From the IMG/VR virus record IMGVR_UViG_3300037840_000188, positions 76,996 through 140,995 of that record: a stretch of DNA of 64,000 bases, one strand, 5' to 3'. Origin of the DNA: a virus. The notes beneath the pieces are model-generated. The model worked only from the letters and a program-made list of their open reading frames with translations. It was not told the origin of the DNA and ran no database searches. Position numbers and translations under genes: made by a program. Every line of letters begins with the position of its first letter. Position 1 is the first letter of the stretch. This document shows, one piece after another, positions 3,680-38,030 of this stretch.

Positions 3680-3895
3680 ATGGAAACGTTGATCTATGTA
3701 TTGATCTGTATTGTCATATTCTGCATTCTTGCCTATGGGCTGCTTTGGGTCTGCGGCAAATTCTTCCCGGAATTTCCGCCCGCCCGCTGGATTTGCGGAG
3801 CCATCCTACTGATCGTTTTGCTTATTTTTGCGGCCAGTCAATTTGGTGGTGGAAGCGGCGTTCACTTCCCTGAATTTCGACACGATTCGCGTTAG
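3680..3895 (+). CDS. Small two-TM membrane protein
   Basis: Two hydrophobic helices; GGAGG upstream. Confidence 0.6.
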   Translation: METLIYVLICIVIFCILAYGLLWVCGKFFPEFPPARWICGAILLIVLLIFAASQFGGGSGVHFPEFRHDSR

Positions 3896-4158
3896 CGCGG
3901 CGCGAGGAAGCAGTGAATCTTGCGGCCTTCGGTGCGAGTGCAGAGACGCCAGTCGCCCTTGTGGATACGTTGACCGGCGGTGAGAATTGTGGAGCGGAAG
4001 GAGGGAACCGTGAGATTGGTGGGGGTAACGACTTCCAGTTGCTGGCCCGGCTCAAGAGCCTTTAACTGGGAATTCAAACCGGACCAGTCGGATCGTTGTC
4101 TGGGGATATCCAGAAGTTCACTGACCCGACCGATCCTGGTTCGAAGAGGACTCGCCAT
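3892..4158 (-). CDS. Hypothetical protein, last gene of Ro60-like operon
   Basis: 88 aa; starts immediately after the TAG of the upstream gene. Confidence 0.55.
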   Translation of the reverse strand: MASPLRTRIGRVSELLDIPRQRSDWSGLNSQLKALEPGQQLEVVTPTNLTVPSFRSTILTAGQRIHKGDWRLCTRTEGRKIHCFLAPR

Positions 4159-4503
4159 CTACCGCCCGGTTTTCGCCGGTGTGAGGCCGAGCTTGTTCTG
4201 GAGAGCCGCCATCTTCTTGACAGCTTCAGTCTTGCGCTCGCTCGTGGTCTTGTAACCCTCAAGCTCTGCTTCGATACGCTTCAGCTCTGCCATATCGGCA
4301 GCGCGAGTGCGACGGTCGATCTCATCACGCAGAACGGTGGTCGACTTCTCCAACCATTCCGGCGCGGAGATCTGAAGGTGGCCGTACTCATTCTCCAGAT
4401 TGCGCGCGTAGGCCGATAGCGTCACCGCTTCGTCCATATCAAGAACGCGATCCAGATTCAGATTCTTCAATGCCTGTAACATTGCTTTAATCCTTTCTAC
4501 CAC
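4159..4503 (-). CDS. Helical/coiled-coil hypothetical protein in Ro60-like operon
   Basis: 114 aa; begins 5 nt after the HNH stop. Confidence 0.6.
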   Translation of the reverse strand: MVERIKAMLQALKNLNLDRVLDMDEAVTLSAYARNLENEYGHLQISAPEWLEKSTTVLRDEIDRRTRAADMAELKRIEAELEGYKTTSERKTEAVKKMAALQNKLGLTPAKTGR

Positions 4504-4508
4504 GAAGC

Positions 4509-5102
4509 TCAGCGCGAGCGCGGCTTGGCAGTTATTTTTCGCAAATCATTCAAGCGCTCGACGAGCGCCTCGTTAGCCAGGTAAGTCTTGTAATTTATCT
4601 CATCCGGCTGATTTAGATAATGCATATCCGAGGAAACACGACCATATTCGGATGAGGCTATCCACGCCGAATATTCCATGCTCCCCCGAAGCTTATTACA
4701 GCGACGGCAGGCGCTAACTAGATTGTCCTCAGCCGTCGCCCCACCATCCTCCCAGAGAATTACGTGATCCACCGTTAATGGCTTTTCTTGACCACAGTAC
4801 CTACACCGAAAGTGATCTCTCCGAAAGACATTCCAGCTGACGAACTGATCTATCTGCCGCTGGCTCTTTCGAAGAATCGCCTTTCCCGGCCCTCGCACAT
4901 CGAGCACGTCGGACTGATTCAGGAAGCGCTCCCACTGAGCGGTGTCCATCACGAGCAGTTCGTGCTCGCCCGCGAGGTCTTCGTCTGGTAACGGGACGAG
5001 ATACACTTTCCCGTTACCAGTCCAGATCGCACCGCCGAGTTGAATCGTGTGGCCGACTTCGAGGATGTCGAGGTCGGCTAACGTCACCTGAGTGGCGGTC
5101 AT
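4509..5102 (-). CDS. HNH endonuclease with N-terminal extension
   Basis: RRDHFRCRYCG...LTVDHVILWEDGG...DNLVSACRRCN; ATGA overlap with the TROVE gene. Confidence 0.85.
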   Translation of the reverse strand: MTATQVTLADLDILEVGHTIQLGGAIWTGNGKVYLVPLPDEDLAGEHELLVMDTAQWERFLNQSDVLDVRGPGKAILRKSQRQIDQFVSWNVFRRDHFRCRYCGQEKPLTVDHVILWEDGGATAEDNLVSACRRCNKLRGSMEYSAWIASSEYGRVSSDMHYLNQPDEINYKTYLANEALVERLNDLRKITAKPRSR

Positions 5103-6619
5103 GCCGCCACCAACTCACGAACGCCGAGCACCTGATCGAGGGTCAACAGAGGGCACGACATGATCTTTTCAACGACACCAAACCGAGAGGCGTTCATCGA
5201 CTGTACGAGGTTTGGCAGCGCATAGTAGTCGGTCCCATTCGTCAGATCATATTCCGTGAACTGCAACCCAGCCGCTGCCATTGCGGCTCCAAACAGACGC
5301 GGACTTCCATTGCCCATCGCGTACCGAGCATCAACAAATGTCCGGTACAGGTAAACCGGAACCTGCTTGTCCGTCTGGCGCTTGAAATGTTGATACGCCG
5401 TCGCGAACATCGGGTGACTGTTCTCGCCTCCATCGCCCACGATTGCGATCCCATCGATATTAAGCTTCTTGTCGAGCGCCCAAGCGAGGCCAACGCCATA
5501 CGAAGTACCACCGCTGGCGAAGATGAACTTCGTCTGCCCTTTGATCTCGTCAAGCGTCTTGCCGGTTACCTCGATAGGAGTCACGTCCGTATTGCAGAAA
5601 ACAAGCCATACGCGGCCCGTCACAAACTTCGCAATAGCAGCACCGATGTGCGCTCCGAGTTCAATAGCCTGCTCCTGCGACTGGCTGCGATCCACGATCA
5701 CAAGCCAATCACCCTCAATCCCCCGCCCCGCATCCTTCTGAGCCTGAATCTGACGCTCCTGGAGTTCGCGAAGCATGGTCTTCAATCCCTTGTCCTCGAC
5801 TTCATCAGCCGCGACCGAGGTCTTGAGCGTTGCCTTATTGCTCTTCGTCGCCTTCGCAACTTTCTTTCGGAAGGTGTCCTTCAGCGCGGCATCTCGCGAG
5901 AGACCCTTCTTTTCGAGGCTCTTTGCCCGCGTCACGACCTCGGTATCGCTCATTTGGTCCATACCGGCCTGAACGACCTCTGAGGCCTGCTGCGTGGCCT
6001 TTGCGCCAGTCATGGCACCACTGACCACCAGTGGAGACAAATGCCACTTCTGGATCGTTGCAGCAACCTGTGCCGGGGTCATCTTCGAGAGATTCTTGAT
6101 GTCGGCGAAGATCGTACCCTGCGCCGGATTGCCGTTGAACAGCACATCCGCAGCGAAAGCTGGAATCTTCGCATGAGTCAGCGCGTACAGCGACTTCAAA
6201 CTGCGCCGGTGGCGAGCCGCGAGGCGGTTCCATTTGCCCGGCTCGGCAGCCTTGGCGTCGAGATAAGAATGGATCATCCGTTTGATCGCCGTATCGCGAC
6301 GGCGGGCCAAATTAAGTGTGGCCGAGAAGCGGAGCGCGCGAAGAATTTCGCGCGGCGACTGCATCGCCAGATGCGCCAGCGAGTTCTCGACAAGCTCATC
6401 GGGAAACTCACGCGTGGCCAGCGTGATCACTGGGAGAGCGATCTTTGTATCCTTTATTTGCCCGTTCGTGAAGTCAAAAGCGATTAAATGGGCGAGAAAT
6501 TCCGGGTCCTGACGGCAGGCTGCGCCGATCACGTTCTGATAGGCGGCGAGGTCTCCGTGAAGGGAAAGATTTAACTTCCCTACGATTTCGTTGCGCGTGA
6601 TTCCGAGTTCTTGTGACAT
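5099..6619 (-). CDS. Ro60/Rsr-like TROVE + vWA RNA-binding protein
   Basis: 506 aa. Helical N-terminal region with QDPEFLAHL...IKD..IALP (TROVE-like). C-terminal vWA MIDAS motifs VIVDRSQS, GGTSY, IVGDGGEN. Adjacent to tRNA-like RNAs. Confidence 0.75.
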   Translation of the reverse strand: MSQELGITRNEIVGKLNLSLHGDLAAYQNVIGAACRQDPEFLAHLIAFDFTNGQIKDTKIALPVITLATREFPDELVENSLAHLAMQSPREILRALRFSATLNLARRRDTAIKRMIHSYLDAKAAEPGKWNRLAARHRRSLKSLYALTHAKIPAFAADVLFNGNPAQGTIFADIKNLSKMTPAQVAATIQKWHLSPLVVSGAMTGAKATQQASEVVQAGMDQMSDTEVVTRAKSLEKKGLSRDAALKDTFRKKVAKATKSNKATLKTSVAADEVEDKGLKTMLRELQERQIQAQKDAGRGIEGDWLVIVDRSQSQEQAIELGAHIGAAIAKFVTGRVWLVFCNTDVTPIEVTGKTLDEIKGQTKFIFASGGTSYGVGLAWALDKKLNIDGIAIVGDGGENSHPMFATAYQHFKRQTDKQVPVYLYRTFVDARYAMGNGSPRLFGAAMAAAGLQFTEYDLTNGTDYYALPNLVQSMNASRFGVVEKIMSCPLLTLDQVLGVRELVAA

Positions 6620-6628
6620 AAAAATAAA

Positions 6629-6797
6629 GGGCGGCGTGTCGATGGACTGTTGCTTTTAGGCAATCACCAAATGATTGTGCCCCGCCGTGGAGCCTCTCCC
6701 CCGTAAGCGCTTTTCAGCAGTTTTATGGGTGGGGGAGGTCGGAATCGAACCGACTGTCTTCTTGCGAAGATGCGTGTAAGTCCGTCAGTTTCCGCCC
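6629..6797 (-). ncRNA. Y-RNA-like unit 1, tRNA module opened at the variable junction
   Basis: Closing GGGCGG/CCGCCC and ACUGACGGAC/GUCCAUCGACA. Inside, in order: hairpin UCUUC-GCAA-GAAGA, T arm GUCGG-UUCGAUU-CCGAC, acceptor CUCCCCC/GGGGGAG, D-like arm GCUC/GGGC, anticodon-like arm CAAUC-AUUUGGU-GAUUG. Confidence 0.75.
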
Positions 6798-6833
6798 TAA
6801 CTTAGTGCCTCAATAAAACGGAGGCGAAATCAA

Positions 6834-7000
6834 AGGAAGCCATGTCGATGCGCTTTGCTGTTATTGGCAAGTCATGCGCTCTACCGCTGAGCTAATCGCT
6901 CACTGGTGAAATCGTTTCCGACTAGTCGACCAGTGAACGATTCTGGATTTGAACCAGAGACCTCATGAATTAAACGTGTATGCGCGTCAGTTTGCTTCCT
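6834..7000 (-). ncRNA. Y-RNA-like unit 2, YrlA-type architecture (opened at the anticodon loop)
   Basis: Closing AGGAAGC/GCUUCCU and ACUGACGCGC/GCGCAUCGACA. Inside: UCAUG, AGGUC, T arm UCUGG-UUCAAAU-CCAGA, acceptor AUCGUUC/GAGCGAU extended by ACUGGU/ACCAGU, D arm UA-GCUC-AGCGGUA-GAGC, CAUGA. Confidence 0.8.
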
Positions 7001-7040
7001 GTCTCGATGAAAGCCGCGTCGTCAGACTCTCGAACTTATT

Positions 7041-7160
7041 CCCGGCATGTCGATGCGCGTTGATCCCTTACGGGAACGGTTGGAGTTGAACCAACTACCT
7101 AAAGCGTTGAAGGCTTTTGCTCTACCAAATGAGCTACGTGTAAGCGCGTCAGTGTCCGGG
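7041..7160 (-). ncRNA. Y-RNA-like unit 3, tRNA arms in normal order, acceptor stem replaced by the conserved helix, anticodon UCA
   Basis: Closing CCCGG/CCGGG and ACUGACGCGC/GCGCAUCGACA. D arm UA-GCUC-AUUUGGUA-GAGC, anticodon arm AAAGC-CUUCAAC-GCUUU, T arm GUUGG-UUCAACU-CCAAC, only a 3-bp acceptor remnant, then UCCC-GUAA-GGGA. Confidence 0.8.
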
Positions 7161-7190
7161 AAAACCTTTCGAACTTGCGTCCGAAACATC

Positions 7191-7221
7191 AGACTACCAC
7201 ATTACCCATGTTACCTGTCAA
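7191..7221 (-). promoter_or_regulatory. Putative sigma70 promoter for the Y-like RNA / Ro60 operon
   Basis: TTGACA-19 nt-TAGTCT with TGn extension and AT-rich sequence upstream; the spacer is long. Confidence 0.45.
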
Positions 7222-8649: not shown

Positions 8650-9567
8650 TTAATCGTCAGACCAGTCGTCCACCGCCGCTGCCCAAGCCTCGCGATACGA
8701 CTTTTGCTCGCCGCTCATCGTTGGAGCTAGGTGCTGCCAGTCTACATCGAGTCGCTCTGTGACAGGCTCGTCAGTTCGCTCTGGATTATCTGTCCAGCGA
8801 TGACCAGCCCAGAATGCCAGGTTACAGGCCCGGAGGCGATCATCGTGGATTCCATAAGCACCACGAGCAGTCATTCTTTGCATGTCAACAACGGCATTAG
8901 CGTACTCATCTACAGCCCACGGCGACATTAATTTCACCCTGCGAGACATCAGGTGCATGCGTGCCCTGGTCCACAGAATTCTCGTGCTCCTTGGCGTCGC
9001 CTGCCAGCCTATAACGTTCGTGTCTTCCGCGACGGTGTTGGCAAACTGCTGCCACATCCACATATTCCCGTACCCAAGTCGGATTAATTCCTGCGTCATT
9101 AGGGGACCGGGGCCGGGGTATGACTCGTATATAAACTCGCACTGATCCCCTTCTTCTCCCGCGTACATGCGCCCCATGACATTGGCTACTTTTGCCAGCT
9201 CTGCAGCATCAACAGGAGCCGCGAACTCGGCCACCTGAAGATCCCGCATGACAAACGCTTGTGTGCCCGTAGCCTTGTCGATGACCGGCTTATTATTCTT
9301 GAATAGCGGCATCTTTATGGCATTCGGTCGGAAAATTTCGATCACGCCGTTATCGGTCTTATAGTCATCTTCGCGACGAGACCCTCGGCTCCAGTTCGTA
9401 ATCCCCTCGGACGGGTCCGCCGCCATTATGTATTTGGCCCAATGTTTTGGCTCTTCCCAGACGAGCAGTAATCCCCTGGGGTCACCATTGACAGACTCGT
9501 CGGCTTCGCCAGTTCGCAAGAAGGAACTTCCAGATACGTGGAAGGCGGATTGGAATTCGTCGTTCAC
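8650..9567 (-). CDS. Terminase large subunit, nuclease (C-terminal) part
   Basis: YIMAADPSEG, QVAEF and HDDRLRA RNase H-like motifs; in frame with the ATPase part across a single TAG. Confidence 0.8.
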   Translation of the reverse strand: MNDEFQSAFHVSGSSFLRTGEADESVNGDPRGLLLVWEEPKHWAKYIMAADPSEGITNWSRGSRREDDYKTDNGVIEIFRPNAIKMPLFKNNKPVIDKATGTQAFVMRDLQVAEFAAPVDAAELAKVANVMGRMYAGEEGDQCEFIYESYPGPGPLMTQELIRLGYGNMWMWQQFANTVAEDTNVIGWQATPRSTRILWTRARMHLMSRRVKLMSPWAVDEYANAVVDMQRMTARGAYGIHDDRLRACNLAFWAGHRWTDNPERTDEPVTERLDVDWQHLAPTMSGEQKSYREAWAAAVDDWSDD

Positions 9568-9573
9568 AATATC

Positions 9574-10830
9574 CTAGTTTACCGACAACTCATACTCATA
9601 ACAGGCCCCTGGATTCATGCACTCGTTAGTTAGCTGCTCGATAAGCTCTGGCGACAAGGCCCCTTTATGTGGCGATTGAAAGGTCTCTCCGGGATCAGCC
9701 CCAAAATTGGTCAGAAACTCTGGCAACTCTCCGTTACTTACATGCTCTGCCCGCGTGGACTCCCACCAATAAAGCTGCTCGCGAGTCGGTCGATATGTAA
9801 TGCCATCATTGAACTCCGGCGAAGTGCGCTCGATCTTCTCGGCGTGCTTACGTGTATGCTCTTCCGGAACCCAATCATCTGGCGCAATGGCTCGATATTT
9901 GGTTTTGTTATACCACCACGGAACGAAGCAATAAATCCAGTCCTCGTAACCTCGACGGTGCCACCTCGCTCCCTCCGAAGACTCATGCCAATAATTCCCC
10001 TTACCGTCAGACGTAGATTCCTGCACGTGGAGGGTCGTGATGGCTTTTGGAATCGAAGGAACGAAGCTGAACCTTATTTTTCCAGGCTGCTTGAATAACG
10101 CGACCTCAGTGAGGTGCGAAATATCGTTCTGCGTACCCGTGCCAAAGCCAGTTTCCGAATTCTCCGCCTGATAGCTGATACGACTTGATATCGGATCTTC
10201 AAATCCCAGTTCCGCATTCTGTTTGTCAGGATAAATGTTAGGCTTTAACCACCAGGCGAGCTTATCGAGAAAGAGATGATCACGAGCAAAAACTTCCGAA
10301 ATGCGCTGATCGTCGAGAGTCGCGAACAGGCCGCGCACTGGATACCAGAAAAGCATCCGATGCCACATCATGCCGCGCACTGTCGCTGTTGCGGCGACCT
10401 GGCGAACCTTGTGGATGTACGCCTTAATGCCTGTCGTGAACTTATACTTGCGCTGCTCTTCGTGGCACTCTACCTCGCGCTTGCCAAAAAGTTTGATATA
10501 TCGATGCTGAGATTCAAGCAGCATTGGCGGTCCGATACCGCTGCCACGCCCGACGCCGGGGTCGATTTCCAGATTGAAATATCTCGAAAAAAAATACTCG
10601 AAGTCTACCTTGCATAACAGGCGCTCACTATCCAGAAATTCTTCTTCCTCGCGGTTTAGTGGCCTGATTAATTGCCCCTGCGGTAGGAGCTTTCTTGTTT
10701 TCGGATCGCGAATCAGCGTCTCTAGGTGCGTAGAAAATTCAATCGAACGGTCGCGGCTCTGGCGCTGGAATTTGAGACCAGCCTTTTTGGCCTTGTGTAA
10801 ACGCTGGGCGATTATTTCCTGACTGTACGT
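9574..10830 (-). CDS. Terminase large subunit, ATPase part (probable ACG start at 10830; first ATG at 10524)
   Basis: Walker A-like IHKVRQVAATA, Walker B SHLTEVALF, coupling motif QESTSDGKGNYW. The frame stays open more than 100 codons upstream of ATG 10524. Confidence 0.8.
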   Translation of the reverse strand, partial: TYSQEIIAQRLHKAKKAGLKFQRQSRDRSIEFSTHLETLIRDPKTRKLLPQGQLIRPLNREEEEFLDSERLLCKVDFEYFFSRYFNLEIDPGVGRGSGIGPPMLLESQHRYIKLFGKREVECHEEQRKYKFTTGIKAYIHKVRQVAATATVRGMMWHRMLFWYPVRGLFATLDDQRISEVFARDHLFLDKLAWWLKPNIYPDKQNAELGFEDPISSRISYQAENSETGFGTGTQNDISHLTEVALFKQPGKIRFSFVPSIPKAITTLHVQESTSDGKGNYWHESSEGARWHRRGYEDWIYCFVPWWYNKTKYRAIAPDDWVPEEHTRKHAEKIERTSPEFNDGITYRPTREQLYWWESTRAEHVSNGELPEFLTNFGADPGETFQSPHKGALSPELIEQLTNECMNPGACYEYELSVN

Positions 10831-11100: not shown

Positions 11101-11715
11101 TTGCCCAACTTAAAGCCTACCGCACTTGAACGCCTGATGGCGAAAGTAATCGTACTGCCGAATGGATGCTGGCAGTGGACGGGCTCGCTGGATGATTGTG
11201 GATATGGATTCTTTCGAATGGATCGAGGGGTAATGTGGCGAGCGCATCGTGCGTCGTATGTCCTGCGAAATGGACCAATCCTAAAAGGAGCGGAATTGGA
11301 TCACTCGTGCCATGATCCTAAATTATGCAAGCTGGGGAATAAATGCCCTCATCGAGCGTGCGTAAATCCTGAACATATGGTCGTTTCAACTCACGCTAAT
11401 AATTGTTCTCGCGAGCGAGCTAATAATGGCATGGAGGCAGCCCATGCCGCACAGAGAGCAAGGACACACTGCAAGCATGGTCACGAATTTACTCCGGAAA
11501 ATACGTATAAAACAAAGAGCGGAAGAAGTTGCAGGCTATGTACATTGCTGAGTATGAGGGTAAAGCCACAGTTGAAATTAGAATGCATCCGTGGCCATAT
11601 ACTCACCCCAGATAATCGATGCGGGAAAAGATCTAACTCATGCAAAATGTGCAGAAAGGAGCAGCTACACGCTAACTACATAGCGAGAAAAAATAAACAT
11701 CAAGACCTGATCTGA
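11101..11715 (+). CDS. Free-standing HNH homing endonuclease with Cys/His DNA-binding repeats
   Basis: GCWQWTG...GYG...AHRASY...ELDHSC...RACVNPEHM; THCKHGHEFTPENTY...CRLC. Confidence 0.85.
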   Translation: MPNLKPTALERLMAKVIVLPNGCWQWTGSLDDCGYGFFRMDRGVMWRAHRASYVLRNGPILKGAELDHSCHDPKLCKLGNKCPHRACVNPEHMVVSTHANNCSRERANNGMEAAHAAQRARTHCKHGHEFTPENTYKTKSGRSCRLCTLLSMRVKPQLKLECIRGHILTPDNRCGKRSNSCKMCRKEQLHANYIARKNKHQDLI

Positions 11716-36613: not shown

Positions 36614-37760
36614 GTCAACGACTATCGACCGAAAGTCGATAGCTTGTCCCGCCCGCTGAAAGCGGGCTGAAGACGTTCGGCGCGTTGACGTTGCGCCCTG
36701 CGGCGGTGATTTGCCGCAGCGTTGGTATCTGCATGGGCCTCGTGATGGCACGAGACGCAGCGGAACTTAGACTGGCTGGAGCGGTTGGATTTTGAGATAT
36801 GACTGCAACGATTACATTCGCGGGACGAGTTTCGGGGATCGGTCACCTCGACCGGCACGCCCCCAATTCCAGCTTTGTAAGCCACGAACGATCTCAATTG
36901 CCTGAACGCCCAACTTCGCAGAACTACCCGTTGCGACTTCCTAACCTTTACCCGGTCGAGAATACCGCCAAGTTCTTCGATGGCGATACCCCGACCAGTG
37001 CCTTTGGCTGTCGCAACGATCTGTTTGGATATGCAATGGTTAATGTCACGAGCAAAACGCGATTCTTTGCCCGCCAATTTACGAAGACGACGGCGTGCCG
37101 ACTTCGTTTGAAGCTTCTGGAGTTTGGTTCTCAGTCGGCGCTGCCGATGCCGCACGGCTTTGACCGGCTTACCGCTGTAGTGCTTTCCGTCCGAGTCGCT
37201 GGCGATATTAGTAATCCCGAAGTCGACGCCAAGGAAATCATCGGCGTCTCTCGGTTCGGGCTCCTCAACGTTACACGTGGCTGTCAGAAACCAGTTGCCG
37301 CGATGGAAGAGAAGATCAGATTCGCCCTGGCGGGATGCGAGCAGCGCCAGCTGCCTCTCTCCTGCGACAAAGTTGCATTTTATGCGCCCGTCGAGAGTGC
37401 TTATGGAAACTGTCTTCTTATCGACATGCCACGTCAGATTTCGGTCGTCGAATGCGAGGCTACCGAGCGGCTTAAATCGCCGCTTTGTTTTCTTGTCGAG
37501 CTTATATGCGTCCGCGACCTTCGCTGTGCATCGGACGGCCACTTGGGCTGGAATTCCGAAGGTCTCTCGCAGTTCTCGGTACGAGAGTTTCTGGAGCGCG
37601 TATTGGGCAAACGTCTTCTGTTTCCACGCTTGATCGCTCAGCCAATTGCAGGCTTTATTTGCCGTGCGCAGTAACTTATCGAGAGCCATCCGTTGCGCGG
37701 CGTCGGGGAGCAATTTAACTTTTGCGGAAAGCTTCAATGATCCAGTATAATCAAGTATTG
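36614..37760 (-). mobile_element. Non-autonomous IS200/IS605-family (TnpB-only) element
   Basis: Right-end hairpin CTATCGAC-TTTCG-GTCGATAG followed by TCGTTGAC. Removing the element restores GGAGG-7 nt-ATG with a stop/start overlap. Inferred TAM TTCAT. Confidence 0.7.
36622..37737 (-). CDS. tnpB: TnpB RNA-guided endonuclease
   Basis: LGVDFG, IAIEEL, CNRC...CVSC, ADTNAAAN; likely TTG start at 37737. Confidence 0.9.
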   Translation of the reverse strand: MKLSAKVKLLPDAAQRMALDKLLRTANKACNWLSDQAWKQKTFAQYALQKLSYRELRETFGIPAQVAVRCTAKVADAYKLDKKTKRRFKPLGSLAFDDRNLTWHVDKKTVSISTLDGRIKCNFVAGERQLALLASRQGESDLLFHRGNWFLTATCNVEEPEPRDADDFLGVDFGITNIASDSDGKHYSGKPVKAVRHRQRRLRTKLQKLQTKSARRRLRKLAGKESRFARDINHCISKQIVATAKGTGRGIAIEELGGILDRVKVRKSQRVVLRSWAFRQLRSFVAYKAGIGGVPVEVTDPRNSSRECNRCSHISKSNRSSQSKFRCVSCHHEAHADTNAAANHRRRAQRQRAERLQPAFSGRDKLSTFGR

Positions 37761-38030
37761 ATGAAAAAAGCAAATCTCGACGGAAACTGGCAGTCGATGG
37801 GCGACGAGAAGTTGGATGCCGTAGCCGCTGCCTTGGGCTGGGAAGATCCCGCTGGCTGCACGTCTGAGGCGAAGCAATGAGCGACCGCCTGAAAGGCTGC
37901 ATTGTCAGTTTCGACCACGATATCCGCGAAGACGACGCCGAGTTTTACCTAAACGCCATCCGTGCAATAAAAGGGAATTATATACATAATTTCCCTTGAC
38001 TCCTTTGGGGTAATCATCTACTATTGAGAC

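What the first reader, a model, noticed from the sequence alone, without database searches (positions are those of the whole stretch)
3892..7221. Phage Ro60/TROVE-like operon with an array of three Y-RNA-like tRNA mimics and a coupled HNH nuclease
Seen: a putative promoter, three repeats of one RNA scaffold, then a TROVE-like/vWA gene, a translationally coupled HNH gene and two small genes, inserted between terminase and portal. Each RNA has 5'-ACUGAC-G(C/G)(G/A)C-(U/A)UACACG...G(C/U)(G/C)C-AUCGACA-3'. The helix shows compensatory changes (GGAC/GUCC vs GCGC/GCGC) and each unit has a different outer stem. Established: bacterial Ro60 (Rsr) binds Y RNAs such as YrlA, which carry a tRNA-like domain and tether Rsr to partner enzymes; the Salmonella rsr-yrlBA-rtcBA operon responds to tRNA damage. 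Inference: a phage RNP that displays several tRNA decoys, for example against tRNA-cleaving defence nucleases, or that guides or gates the HNH protein.
Basis: partly seen in the sequence, partly recalled or inferred. Interest (0 to 1): 0.92.

Follow-up and report, generated by a model that had tools for sequence, protein, structure and literature searches.

The report
Phage Ro60-like protein with tRNA-mimic RNAs
A 141-kb uncultured phage carries a very divergent relative of the RNA-binding ring protein Ro60, preceded by three small RNA genes that share one conserved "handle" and each display a differently rearranged tRNA look-alike; this is a previously unrecognised, widespread phage variant of the known Ro60/Y-RNA particle, and its function is still unknown.

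Summary
On the minus strand, three RNA units (about 7162-7039, 6999-6835 and 6797-6629) share an exact handle, ACUGAC-GNNC-WUACACG ... GNNC-AUCGACA, and each has its own outer stem. They precede a 506-aa gene, an ATGA-overlapping HNH gene and two small genes.

The 506-aa protein has no Pfam, PHROG or NCBIfam hit. Its AlphaFold model nevertheless matches every solved Ro60 over its full length (Z 15.6-19.6, 412-440 residues), with an invariant MIDAS motif.

In 69 related viral contigs the handle's 5' motif occurs 132 times upstream of the gene on the same strand, and 0 times in 937 kb elsewhere. Covariation is strong.

- Unit A holds a tRNA body in normal order, with a canonical anticodon loop (UCA), a 3-bp acceptor stem and no CCA.
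- Units B and C are YrlA-like permuted bodies.
- Rfam's YrlA model and the published GNCGAA motif do not fit.

The steadiest protein partner is not the HNH (about 30 of 70 loci, at varying positions, probably mobile). It is the 114-aa helical protein, present in 64 of 70 loci.

The Ro60/Y-RNA reading is supported. The decoy and HNH-gating ideas remain untested. This is a new variant of a known kind. The scan has noted similar handle-tagged arrays beside hidden Ro60-like genes in other phages.

The parts
7191..7221 (-). Promoter-like element: TTGACA (7221-7216), 19-nt spacer, TAGTCT (7196-7191)
   Evidence: Read directly. The hexamers are conserved at the same place in L001 (TTGACA..TAATCT) and L002 (TTGACG..TAACAT) while the flanks diverge. 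The consensus scan did not call it. Function is inferred.
7167..7186 (-). Leader hairpin with a GCAA tetraloop, between the promoter-like site and unit A
   Evidence: Sequence read; paired in the fold of the whole array. No further test.
7039..7162 (-). RNA unit A (type I): handle plus a tRNA body in normal order (D arm, anticodon arm with loop CUUCAAC = anticodon UCA, T arm), 3-bp acceptor-like stem, GNRA hairpin, no CCA
   Evidence: Rfam tRNA 51.8 bits over model positions 5-66 only, at 7076-7139. ARAGORN finds no tRNA. Model R1 scores 103.7 bits. Fold; acceptor analysis.
6835..6999 (-). RNA unit B (type II, YrlA-like): handle plus T arm, long closed acceptor-like hairpin and D arm
   Evidence: Rfam YrlA 27.2 bits, E 1.4e-3, below the gathering score of 69. 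Model R2, built without window sequences, scores 65.2 bits, E 1.3e-13. Fold z -4.75.
6629..6797 (-). RNA unit C (permuted tRNA body): handle plus GNRA hairpin, T arm, 7-bp closed acceptor-like stem, degenerate D arm, and a 5-bp stem with 7-nt loop AUUUGGU (anticodon-like UUG). A U-rich tract follows, running into the ATG of the Ro-like gene
   Evidence: R2 scores 45.7 bits, E 1.3e-8. Fold; sequence. L002 has the same layout.
5099..6619 (-). Ro60-like protein, 506 aa: helical TROVE-type ring (about residues 1-296) plus vWA domain (about 300-500) with MIDAS residues D310, S312, S314, T372 and D396
   Evidence: AF2 model, pLDDT 84.9. The top 13 Foldseek PDB hits are all Ro60. VIA-align Z 15.6-19.6 over 412-440 residues. 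BFVD top hits are viral Ro-like/TROVE proteins. Invariant columns. No Pfam TROVE hit.
4509..5102 (-). HNH endonuclease, 197 aa, with a family-specific N-terminal domain. Its start overlaps the Ro stop (ATGA)
   Evidence: Pfam HNH 48.5 bits. Catalytic and zinc residues are invariant: C100, C103, D112, H113, C132, N136. The family is found in 30 viral loci, 29 on Ro-bearing contigs and 28 adjacent. The N-domain model has low confidence.
4159..4503 (-). Small helical partner protein: 114 aa from GTG 4503, or 107 aa from ATG 4482. Core motif PEW, coiled-coil C-terminal half
   Evidence: Present directly downstream of the Ro-like gene on the same strand in 64 of 70 loci, while the flanking genes are not conserved, and also in all 4 MAG loci. 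No Pfam, PDB or Atlas match. No longer fused form found.
3892..4158 (-). 88-aa protein of unknown function, the last gene of the operon
   Evidence: Homologues only in the closest relatives: L001-L003 and MAG locus L071. No family match.

Best explanation
This is a portable phage module encoding a Ro60/Y-RNA-type ribonucleoprotein.

Transcription: one transcript probably starts at the conserved TTGACA/TAGTCT site and carries three self-contained RNAs followed by the protein genes. Each RNA is closed by its own outer stem. All share a two-helix handle whose conserved nucleotides are ACUG and UACAYG on the 5' strand and CGAC on the 3' strand.

Assembly (inferred): the divergent Ro60-like ring binds this handle, as Ro60 binds the conserved stem of Y RNAs. 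The tRNA-shaped cargo is thereby left exposed. It has an intact D/T elbow and a closed, non-chargeable acceptor end, and units A and C also have a canonical anticodon loop.

Action (inferred by analogy): as with Rsr-YrlA-PNPase and phage phiLo Ro60-Yrl-PNPase, the cargo docks the particle onto host proteins that recognise tRNA shape. This would redirect or blunt host RNA turnover or tRNA-directed activities during infection.

Other genes: the 114-aa helical protein is a dedicated subunit or adaptor, possibly a ligand of the conserved MIDAS site. The HNH nuclease is an accessory and most likely a homing-type element that travels with the module.

Shown here: the fold, the RNA structures, and the gene-RNA co-occurrence. 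Inferred: binding, processing and host targets.
For: - Fold: full-length matches to human, Xenopus, Deinococcus and Thermus-phage Ro60 (Foldseek E 8.5e-9 to 2e-6; Z 15.6-19.6, above vWA-only matches at Z 13.9 or less). MIDAS residues are invariant. A weak collinear profile hit to phiLo Ro60 includes the DPEF motif.
- Handle-gene association: 132 strict 5' motifs upstream on the same strand in 261 kb, against 0 in 937 kb elsewhere; 52 of 69 loci have 1-6 copies.
- Type I model: 57 full-length hits in about 50 of 60 loci.
- Structure support: 97.6% of cells paired, 311 double-sided changes against 88 in shuffles, covariation 0.683 against 0.165, and 0.107 or less when the partners are slid.
- Type II model, built without the window, hits units B and C.
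- Outer stems are present in 96% of units (-12.9 against -5.2 kcal/mol).
- Only the Ro-like gene, the 114-aa gene and the HNH are conserved across loci; the flanks are not.
- Precedent: Y RNAs lie next to Ro60 in more than 250 bacteria and phages (PMC4201824); phage phiLo Ro60 binds two upstream Yrl RNAs and host PNPase (PMC12135203).
Against: - No expression or binding data.
- The Pfam TROVE model finds nothing even at E 10, so homology rests on the fold plus weak motifs.
- The handle lacks the GNCGAA motif thought to mediate Ro60 binding in YrlA, and no unit reaches Rfam's YrlA threshold, either here or in 15 related loci.
- Host partners are unknown.
- 8 of 57 type I units in relatives have a near-complete acceptor stem plus NCCA, so some could be real tRNAs.
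Confidence: 0.68

Rival explanations
1. tRNA decoy or sponge. The particle's job is to present non-chargeable tRNA bodies with exposed anticodon loops that soak up host tRNA-cleaving defence nucleases, while the Ro-like ring protects the decoys from exonucleases.
For: - Anticodon loops keep tRNA hallmarks across 57 units: 7 nt in 53, U33 in 44 of 53, purine 37 in 51 of 53.
- Acceptor ends are closed or truncated.
- Loci carry arrays of 1-6 units with different anticodons.
- The phage also carries 23 tRNAs of its own. Own knowledge: phage tRNA sets are a known answer to tRNA-targeting defence.
- Anticodons UUC, UUG and CUU are frequent.
Against: - 10 of 53 anticodons begin with A34 and 5 read stop codons, so many copy no natural host tRNA.
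- Unit B has no anticodon loop.
- No defence or anti-defence gene is linked to the module.
- Nothing was tested experimentally.
Confidence: 0.15
2. The HNH is the effector. The Ro-like ring and its RNAs guide, tether or gate the HNH nuclease, much as Y RNA tethers Rsr to PNPase.
For: - ATGA translational coupling in the window.
- The HNH subfamily with its own N-terminal domain is almost exclusive to these loci: 29 of 30 on Ro-bearing contigs, 28 adjacent.
- The catalytic residues are intact.
Against: - The HNH is absent from more than half of the loci, including the close relative L002.
- Its position varies: after the Ro-like gene, just before it, or inside the RNA array. Own knowledge: this pattern is typical of free-standing homing endonucleases in phage tRNA clusters.
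- The N-domain fold is unresolved.
Confidence: 0.1
3. tRNA precursor cassette. The handle is a conserved leader-trailer pairing of phage tRNA precursors, and the Ro-like protein is a chaperone or quality-control factor for their maturation. The window's units would be decayed members.
For: - In type I units the handle continues the acceptor stem. 18 of 57 have at least 6 of 7 acceptor pairs, and 8 also encode NCCA.
- ARAGORN of 57 type I cores as tRNAs.
- 56 of 69 loci have ordinary tRNA genes within the flanks, nearly all on the same strand.
- M. smegmatis YrlA is cut by RNase P and receives CCA (PMC4201824).
Against: - Most units, including all three here, cannot yield a chargeable tRNA: a 3-bp acceptor stem or a closed hairpin.
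- The permuted type II units are equally conserved.
- The phage's 23 normal tRNAs lie 22 kb away and have no handle.
Confidence: 0.06

Closest known systems
Bacterial and phage Ro60 (Rsr) with YrlA/YrlB Y RNAs (Chen et al. 2014, PMC4201824; Rfam RF02553)
   Same: - A ring-plus-vWA protein with small RNA genes just upstream on the same strand.
- More than one RNA per locus.
- One RNA class (units B and C) has the T arm, closed acceptor-like stem and D arm order of YrlA.
- A long terminal stem formed by the 5' and 3' ends.
   Different: - The protein is invisible to Pfam TROVE and is 12-16% identical to solved Ro60s.
- The handle motif is ACUG..UACAYG/..CGAC instead of GNCGAA.
- YrlA model scores are far below threshold.
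- Complete anticodon arms are present.
- A dedicated 114-aa partner gene is present.
Thermus phage phiLo Ro60 with Yrl1 and Yrl2 (PMC12135203; PDB 9KOP, 9L5Y)
   Same: A phage-encoded Ro60 with Y-like RNA genes directly upstream. It is among the best structural matches (E 8.5e-9; Z 17.3) and the best sequence-profile hit.
   Different: - The phiLo RNAs were identified by a CGAA motif and are not described as full tRNA mimics.
- That paper does not mention an HNH; whether phiLo has a small helical partner was not checked.
- Binding to host PNPase is shown for phiLo and only inferred here.
Deinococcus radiodurans Yrn1 (Chen et al. 2014)
   Same: As in unit A, the D-like and T arms are in normal tRNA order, with an anticodon-arm-like stem between them.
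   Different: Yrn1 has a 6-nt loop and a partial D arm. Unit A has a canonical D arm, a 7-nt U33/A37 loop and a different handle. In this family both orientations sit on the same handle in one locus.
Free-standing HNH homing endonucleases in phage tRNA gene clusters (own knowledge: T4 and T5 examples)
   Same: A small HNH gene with sporadic presence and varying position within or beside an array of tRNA-like genes.
   Different: This subfamily has its own conserved N-terminal domain and is almost confined to Ro-like modules. No target site is known.

Membership tests
Ro60 / Rsr (TROVE + vWA) | Helical TROVE ring followed by a vWA domain, matching solved Ro60 structures over the full length | tested here: met
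   The top 13 Foldseek hits are all Ro60. Z 15.6-19.6, 412-440 residues aligned, rmsd 4.6-6.0, above vWA-only rows at Z 13.9 or less. This rests on a predicted model (pLDDT 84.9).
Ro60 / Rsr (TROVE + vWA) | Match to the Pfam TROVE model PF05731 (cut-off 23 bits) | tested here: not met
   No hit for the protein or for 39 family members at E 1 or less. No hit in the six-frame genome at E 10 or less, while the controls ring.
Ro60 / Rsr (TROVE + vWA) | MIDAS motif (DxSxS ... T ... D) in the vWA domain | tested here: met
   D310, S312, S314, T372 and D396 are invariant in 39 sequences.
Ro60 / Rsr (TROVE + vWA) | Partner small RNA genes within about 2 kb on the same strand | tested here: met
   132 handle motifs upstream on the same strand against 0 elsewhere; model hits in about 50 of 60 loci.
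Ro60 / Rsr (TROVE + vWA) | Physical binding of the RNAs, and of single-stranded RNA ends in the central cavity | not testable with these tools
   Needs RIP, EMSA or a structure.
YrlA (Rfam RF02553) | Covariance-model score at or above the gathering threshold (69 bits) | tested here: not met
   Unit B scores 27.2 bits; units A and C have no hit. No YrlA hit in 15 related loci at gathering threshold.
YrlA (Rfam RF02553) | Permuted tRNA-like domain: T arm, closed acceptor-like stem, D arm | tested here: met
   Units B and C; R2 scores 65.2 and 45.7 bits.
YrlA (Rfam RF02553) | GNCGAAN0-1G motif near the 5' end (Chen et al. 2014) | tested here: not met
   No GNCGAA on the RNA strand anywhere in 6629-7162. 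The 5' strand reads ACUGAC-GNNC-WUACACG.
tRNA (RF00005) | Cloverleaf with a 7-bp acceptor stem and a free 3' end (NCCA, encoded or addable) | tested here: not met
   Unit A matches model positions 5-66 only. It has 3 acceptor pairs and no CCA. ARAGORN finds no tRNA in the window.
HNH endonuclease (PF01844) | HNH motif with the catalytic His and zinc-binding cysteines | tested here: met
   48.5 bits against a cut-off of 21.4. C100, C103, D112, H113, C132 and N136 are invariant.
Terminase-associated (packaging) HNH | Conserved linkage to terminase and portal genes | tested here: not met
   In relatives the HNH travels with the Ro-like module. A portal homologue is near it in only 1 of 69 loci.

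The most novel reading that the evidence does not exclude
A phage-specific Ro60-like platform uses one handle to load interchangeable, non-chargeable tRNA bodies opened at different points of the cloverleaf. It deploys them, with a dedicated adaptor protein, as molecular mimics that capture or disarm host tRNA-recognising immunity or RNA-turnover enzymes. That would be a programmable tRNA-mimic display system, distinct from classical Y RNA function.
Probability: 0.15. Interest if true: 0.85.

Novelty: new variant of a known kind. Interest (0 to 1): 0.6.

Why it matters
Ro60 and Y RNAs are conserved from bacteria to humans, and Ro60 is a major autoantigen, yet what the tRNA-like part of bacterial Y RNAs does is still unknown.

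This work defines a large phage clade of Ro60-like proteins that standard domain models miss: at least 365 clusters at 50% identity, 69 IMG/VR contigs, one GenBank phage record and only 4 hits among 185,579 species genomes.

The clade has a new and easily searched RNA handle. It has natural 'swap experiments', in which the same handle carries tRNA bodies opened at the acceptor, anticodon or variable positions. It also has a near-universal small partner protein.

Together these give direct experimental handles on what Ro60 recognises and what the tRNA mimic is for. They also flag RNA genes that tRNA finders either miss or miscall: ARAGORN of 57 cores as tRNAs, including 'SeC' and 'Stop'.

Tried and rejected
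- Ro-like protein, sequence searches: Pfam, PHROG and NCBIfam gave no hits. A single-sequence PDB search gave nothing useful.
- 114-aa protein: a profile search against PDB, Pfam scans of 23 members, the ESM Atlas and a search for longer fused forms gave only coiled-coil noise or nothing.
- HNH N-terminal domain: the AF2 model is too poor (pLDDT 37-60) for a fold search.
- RNA-repair context: there is no RtcB or Rnl2-type ligase in the phage genome, so I dropped the rsr-rtcBA analogy.
- Recent duplication: unit A is not a recent copy of any of the phage's 23 tRNAs.
- Terminase claim: not verifiable by sequence methods.
- Twilight-zone link: the representatives search listed only the 150 best hits, so I could not test whether the profile reaches canonical TROVE proteins.
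- Literature: three reviews or papers (Burroughs and Aravind 2016; Sim et al. 2020; Sim and Wolin 2018) are not held in the library.
- Rejected readings: a cis-regulatory leader (units are self-closed, lie 73-2576 nt from the gene, and are sometimes separated from it by the HNH); chance repeats; a packaging HNH.

Full report
**Setting.** The window is bases 76996-140995 of a 140,995-bp IMG/VR virus record that CheckV rates as complete. Every feature of the finding lies on the minus strand. The genome carries 23 ordinary tRNA genes about 22 kb away from the finding and none in the window. The only three copies of the handle motif in the whole genome are the three units discussed here.

**The observation.** The pattern ACTGACGNNCWTACACG occurs three times without mismatch, at 7153, 6991 and 6789 on the minus strand; 0.18 matches are expected by chance. 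Each copy is followed 78-125 nt later by GNNCATCGACA. Folded alone, each unit gives the same base: a unit-specific 6-bp outer stem, an internal loop, a 3-bp helix (U.G, G-C, A-U), a one-nucleotide bulge on each side, and a 4-5-bp helix (GCGC/GCGC twice, GGAC/GUCC once). A multi-branch body sits on top. Fold z-scores are -2.6, -4.8 and -3.3. The Ro-like ORF (5099-6619) and the HNH ORF (4509-5102) overlap as ATGA. A 114-aa ORF and an 88-aa ORF follow directly. A TTGACA, 19 nt, TAGTCT element at 7221-7191 is too weak for the consensus scan, but it is conserved at the same position in relatives L001 and L002 while the surrounding sequence diverges. The portal call for 360-2345 is supported (phrog_156, E 1.9e-10). 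I could not confirm the terminase label for 8650-10830.

**The protein.** No Pfam, PHROG or NCBIfam model matches it. The Pfam TROVE model finds nothing in the six-frame genome even at E 10, although it does find Deinococcus and Bacteroides in the controls. The protein nevertheless belongs to a large family. Word-based searching gave 392 clusters at 90% identity. A profile search of 1.84 billion representatives gave 365 hits at E 1e-30 or better and 1077 at E 1e-3 or better. Some members show vWA_CoxE or VWA_2, and sub-threshold vWA_Ro60. An AlphaFold2 model built on 39 sequences (pLDDT 84.9) is all-helical to about residue 296 and alpha/beta afterwards.

Against the PDB, the 13 best Foldseek hits are all Ro60 over the full length: Thermus phage phiLo, Deinococcus Rsr, human and Xenopus (E 8.5e-9 to 2e-6, TM 0.52-0.60). 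VIA-align gives Z 15.6-19.6 over 412-440 residues, clearly above the vWA-only matches (Z 13.9 or less over about 160 residues). The best viral predicted structures are annotated Ro-like or TROVE proteins. The MIDAS residues D310, S312, S314, T372 and D396 are invariant. The family profile's best PDB sequence hit, though weak (E 0.18), is the phiLo Ro60, and the alignment is collinear through the DPEF/DPEY motif and the vWA domain. I conclude that this is a highly divergent Ro60-type protein. Membership is met by fold and architecture but not by the curated sequence model.

**The RNAs elsewhere.** I fetched 69 viral contigs that encode the protein. The strict 5' motif ACTG-N6-NTACAYG occurs 132 times upstream of the gene on its strand (261 kb searched) and not once in the remaining 937 kb (downstream on the plus strand, plus the whole minus strand). 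52 loci have 1-6 copies. The units fall into recurring classes.

*Type I* (alignment A2, model R1) has the handle, then a D arm, a 5-bp stem with a 7-nt loop, a T arm, a short acceptor-like pairing and usually a GNRA hairpin.
- R1 finds 57 full-length copies at 56 bits or more in about 50 of 60 non-redundant sources, with window unit A at 103.7 bits.
- On these 57 copies, 97.6% of cells pair. There are 311 double-sided changes against 88 in shuffles. Covariation is 0.683 against 0.165, and every slid control is 0.107 or less. Even the near-invariant G4-C pair of the handle switches to U-A in 8 sequences.
- The 12 nt flanking each unit form a 6-9-bp outer stem in 96% of cases (-12.9 against -5.2 kcal/mol for mismatched partners).

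*Type II* (alignment A7, model R2, built without window sequences) is the YrlA-like order: T arm, closed acceptor-like hairpin, D arm. It hits about 40 loci, and window units B and C at 65.2 and 45.7 bits. Many type II units also carry a short stem with a 7-nt CUUNNAA loop directly after UACAYG.

Unit C and its L002 counterpart add a full anticodon-type arm after the D arm. The window therefore shows three different openings of the cloverleaf on one handle, as another first-stage note (e1-5883319) also read.

**Are they tRNAs?** Unit A scores 51.8 bits with Rfam tRNA, but only over model positions 5-66. ARAGORN rejects it. It has 3 acceptor pairs, a GNRA hairpin and no CCA.

Across the 57 type I units the loop keeps tRNA hallmarks: 7 nt in 53, U33 in 44 of 53, purine 37 in 51 of 53, A38 in 47 of 53. 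The triplet, however, is free. There are 21 different anticodons, of which 10 start with A34 and 5 read stop codons. Selection therefore appears to act on the shape of the anticodon loop and on the D/T elbow, not on decoding.

In relatives there is a continuum. 18 of 57 units have at least 6 of 7 acceptor pairs and 8 also encode NCCA. ARAGORN of 57 cores as tRNAs, including 'SeC' and 'Stop'. The modules usually lie inside or beside ordinary tRNA arrays on the same strand (56 of 69 loci). This points to an origin from tRNA genes, and it keeps a minor rival alive: that some units are processed like tRNAs, as M. smegmatis YrlA is (PMC4201824).

**Relation to described Y RNAs.** Chen et al. 2014 (PMC4201824) defined YrlA by its position next to Ro60, a tRNA-like domain and a GNCGAA motif near the 5' end. 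Here the position and the tRNA-like domain fit. There is, however, no GNCGAA on the RNA strand of the array. Unit B reaches only 27.2 of the 69 bits that Rfam requires. No YrlA hit at gathering threshold appears in 15 related loci, even though they hold type II units scoring 65-104 bits with R2. The handle is thus a distinct motif, presumably co-evolved with the divergent protein. Phage Ro60 with two upstream Y-like RNAs that bind host PNPase is published for Thermus phage phiLo (PMC12135203). Jumbo-phage TROVE proteins with tRNA-like partners are mentioned in PMC7824862. The kind is therefore known; this clade, its handle and its partners appear not to be described in what I could search.

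**Protein partners.** I clustered all ORFs of 70 loci. Only three families recur: the Ro-like gene (67 loci), the 114-aa gene directly downstream on the same strand (64 loci), and the HNH (34 loci, including some unrelated HNH genes). No flanking family reaches more than 12 loci. The module is therefore portable, and the small helical protein is its steadiest companion. It also follows the gene in all four MAG loci. It has a conserved PEW motif, a coiled-coil C-terminal half and, in many homologues, a basic N-terminal tail. No known family, structure or fused form was found.

The HNH subfamily has its own conserved N-terminal domain and intact catalytic and zinc residues. Searched on its own, it gives 30 viral loci, 29 of them on Ro-bearing contigs and 28 adjacent to the Ro-like gene. 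Yet it is missing from more than half of the modules, including the close relative L002. It sits after the Ro-like gene (window, L001, L003), just before it, or inside the RNA array. That pattern fits a homing-type passenger better than a core subunit, though a functional link is not excluded.

**Distribution and host.** GenBank phages hold one relative, an uncultured 595-kb phage at 28.6% identity. Among 185,579 species genomes only four MAG contigs match. The best is a Solibacteraceae contig at 68% identity, which also carries the 114-aa and 88-aa genes. The family is thus essentially phage-borne, and the host is probably an acidobacterium. The phage has no RtcB or Rnl2 ligase.

**Mechanism.** The fold, the RNA structures and the exclusive co-occurrence are shown. 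The rest is inferred: the ring binds the handle, the RNAs are cut from one transcript at their outer stems, and the exposed tRNA-shaped bodies engage host tRNA-recognising proteins. I give 0.68 to the RNP reading as a whole, 0.15 to the specific decoy function, 0.10 to an HNH effector role and 0.06 to a tRNA-precursor cassette.

**Earlier scan notes.** Follow-up notes on other genomes (e1-272486, e1-5935525, e1-5922176, e1-5924251, e1-5933927, e1-5972937) describe similar handle-tagged tRNA-mimic arrays beside hidden Ro60-like genes in other phages. The scan has therefore met this kind of system before on other DNA. I did not test those claims.

Noticed in passing
window 8650-10830 (-): The long frame that other notes call the large terminase has one in-frame TAG (between ...ELSVN and DIVND...) and no ATG, GTG or TTG near its 5' end. 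It matches no Pfam, PHROG, NCBIfam or PDB sequence.
   Followed up: partly
genome G000:C1:52678-62037 (outside the window): 23 canonical tRNA genes, all on the minus strand, in three clusters about 22 kb from the Ro-like module. None carries the handle.
   Followed up: partly
window 11101-11715 (+): A second, unrelated HNH endonuclease gene (phrog_826, E 2.9e-42).
   Followed up: no
window 36622-37902 (-): A transposase-like gene (phrog_506, E 1.3e-40) inside the phage genome.
   Followed up: no
L039:2129-2239, L046:3445-3551, L010:2917-3029, L065:3758-3861 and others: Some handle-bearing type I units in related phages keep a 6-7-bp acceptor stem followed by NCCA, so they may still yield chargeable tRNAs. 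ARAGORN labels some others tRNA-SeC or tRNA-Stop.
   Followed up: partly
L054:57-346: A phage-encoded permuted tmRNA (Rfam RF04321, 101.2 bits) lies about 2 kb upstream of that phage's Ro-like RNA array.
   Followed up: no
L071 (Solibacteraceae MAG contig CAWKYG010000024.1, 428 kb): The closest cellular copy of the module (68% identity, with the 114-aa and 88-aa genes) matches in three different reading frames. This is either a decayed prophage gene or long-read indel errors. It hints at an acidobacterial host.
   Followed up: partly
L006/L069:5484-6020 and L055/L056 (L056:5485-6042): In two lineages the ORF of the small partner protein extends upstream into a CxxC...C zinc-ribbon-like segment. 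Many other homologues have an Arg/Lys-rich N-terminal tail ending in ERRKxM.
   Followed up: no
P0188 (971 aa): One family representative is about twice the normal length and matches only through its first 346 residues. It may be a fusion of the TROVE-like ring with another domain.
   Followed up: no
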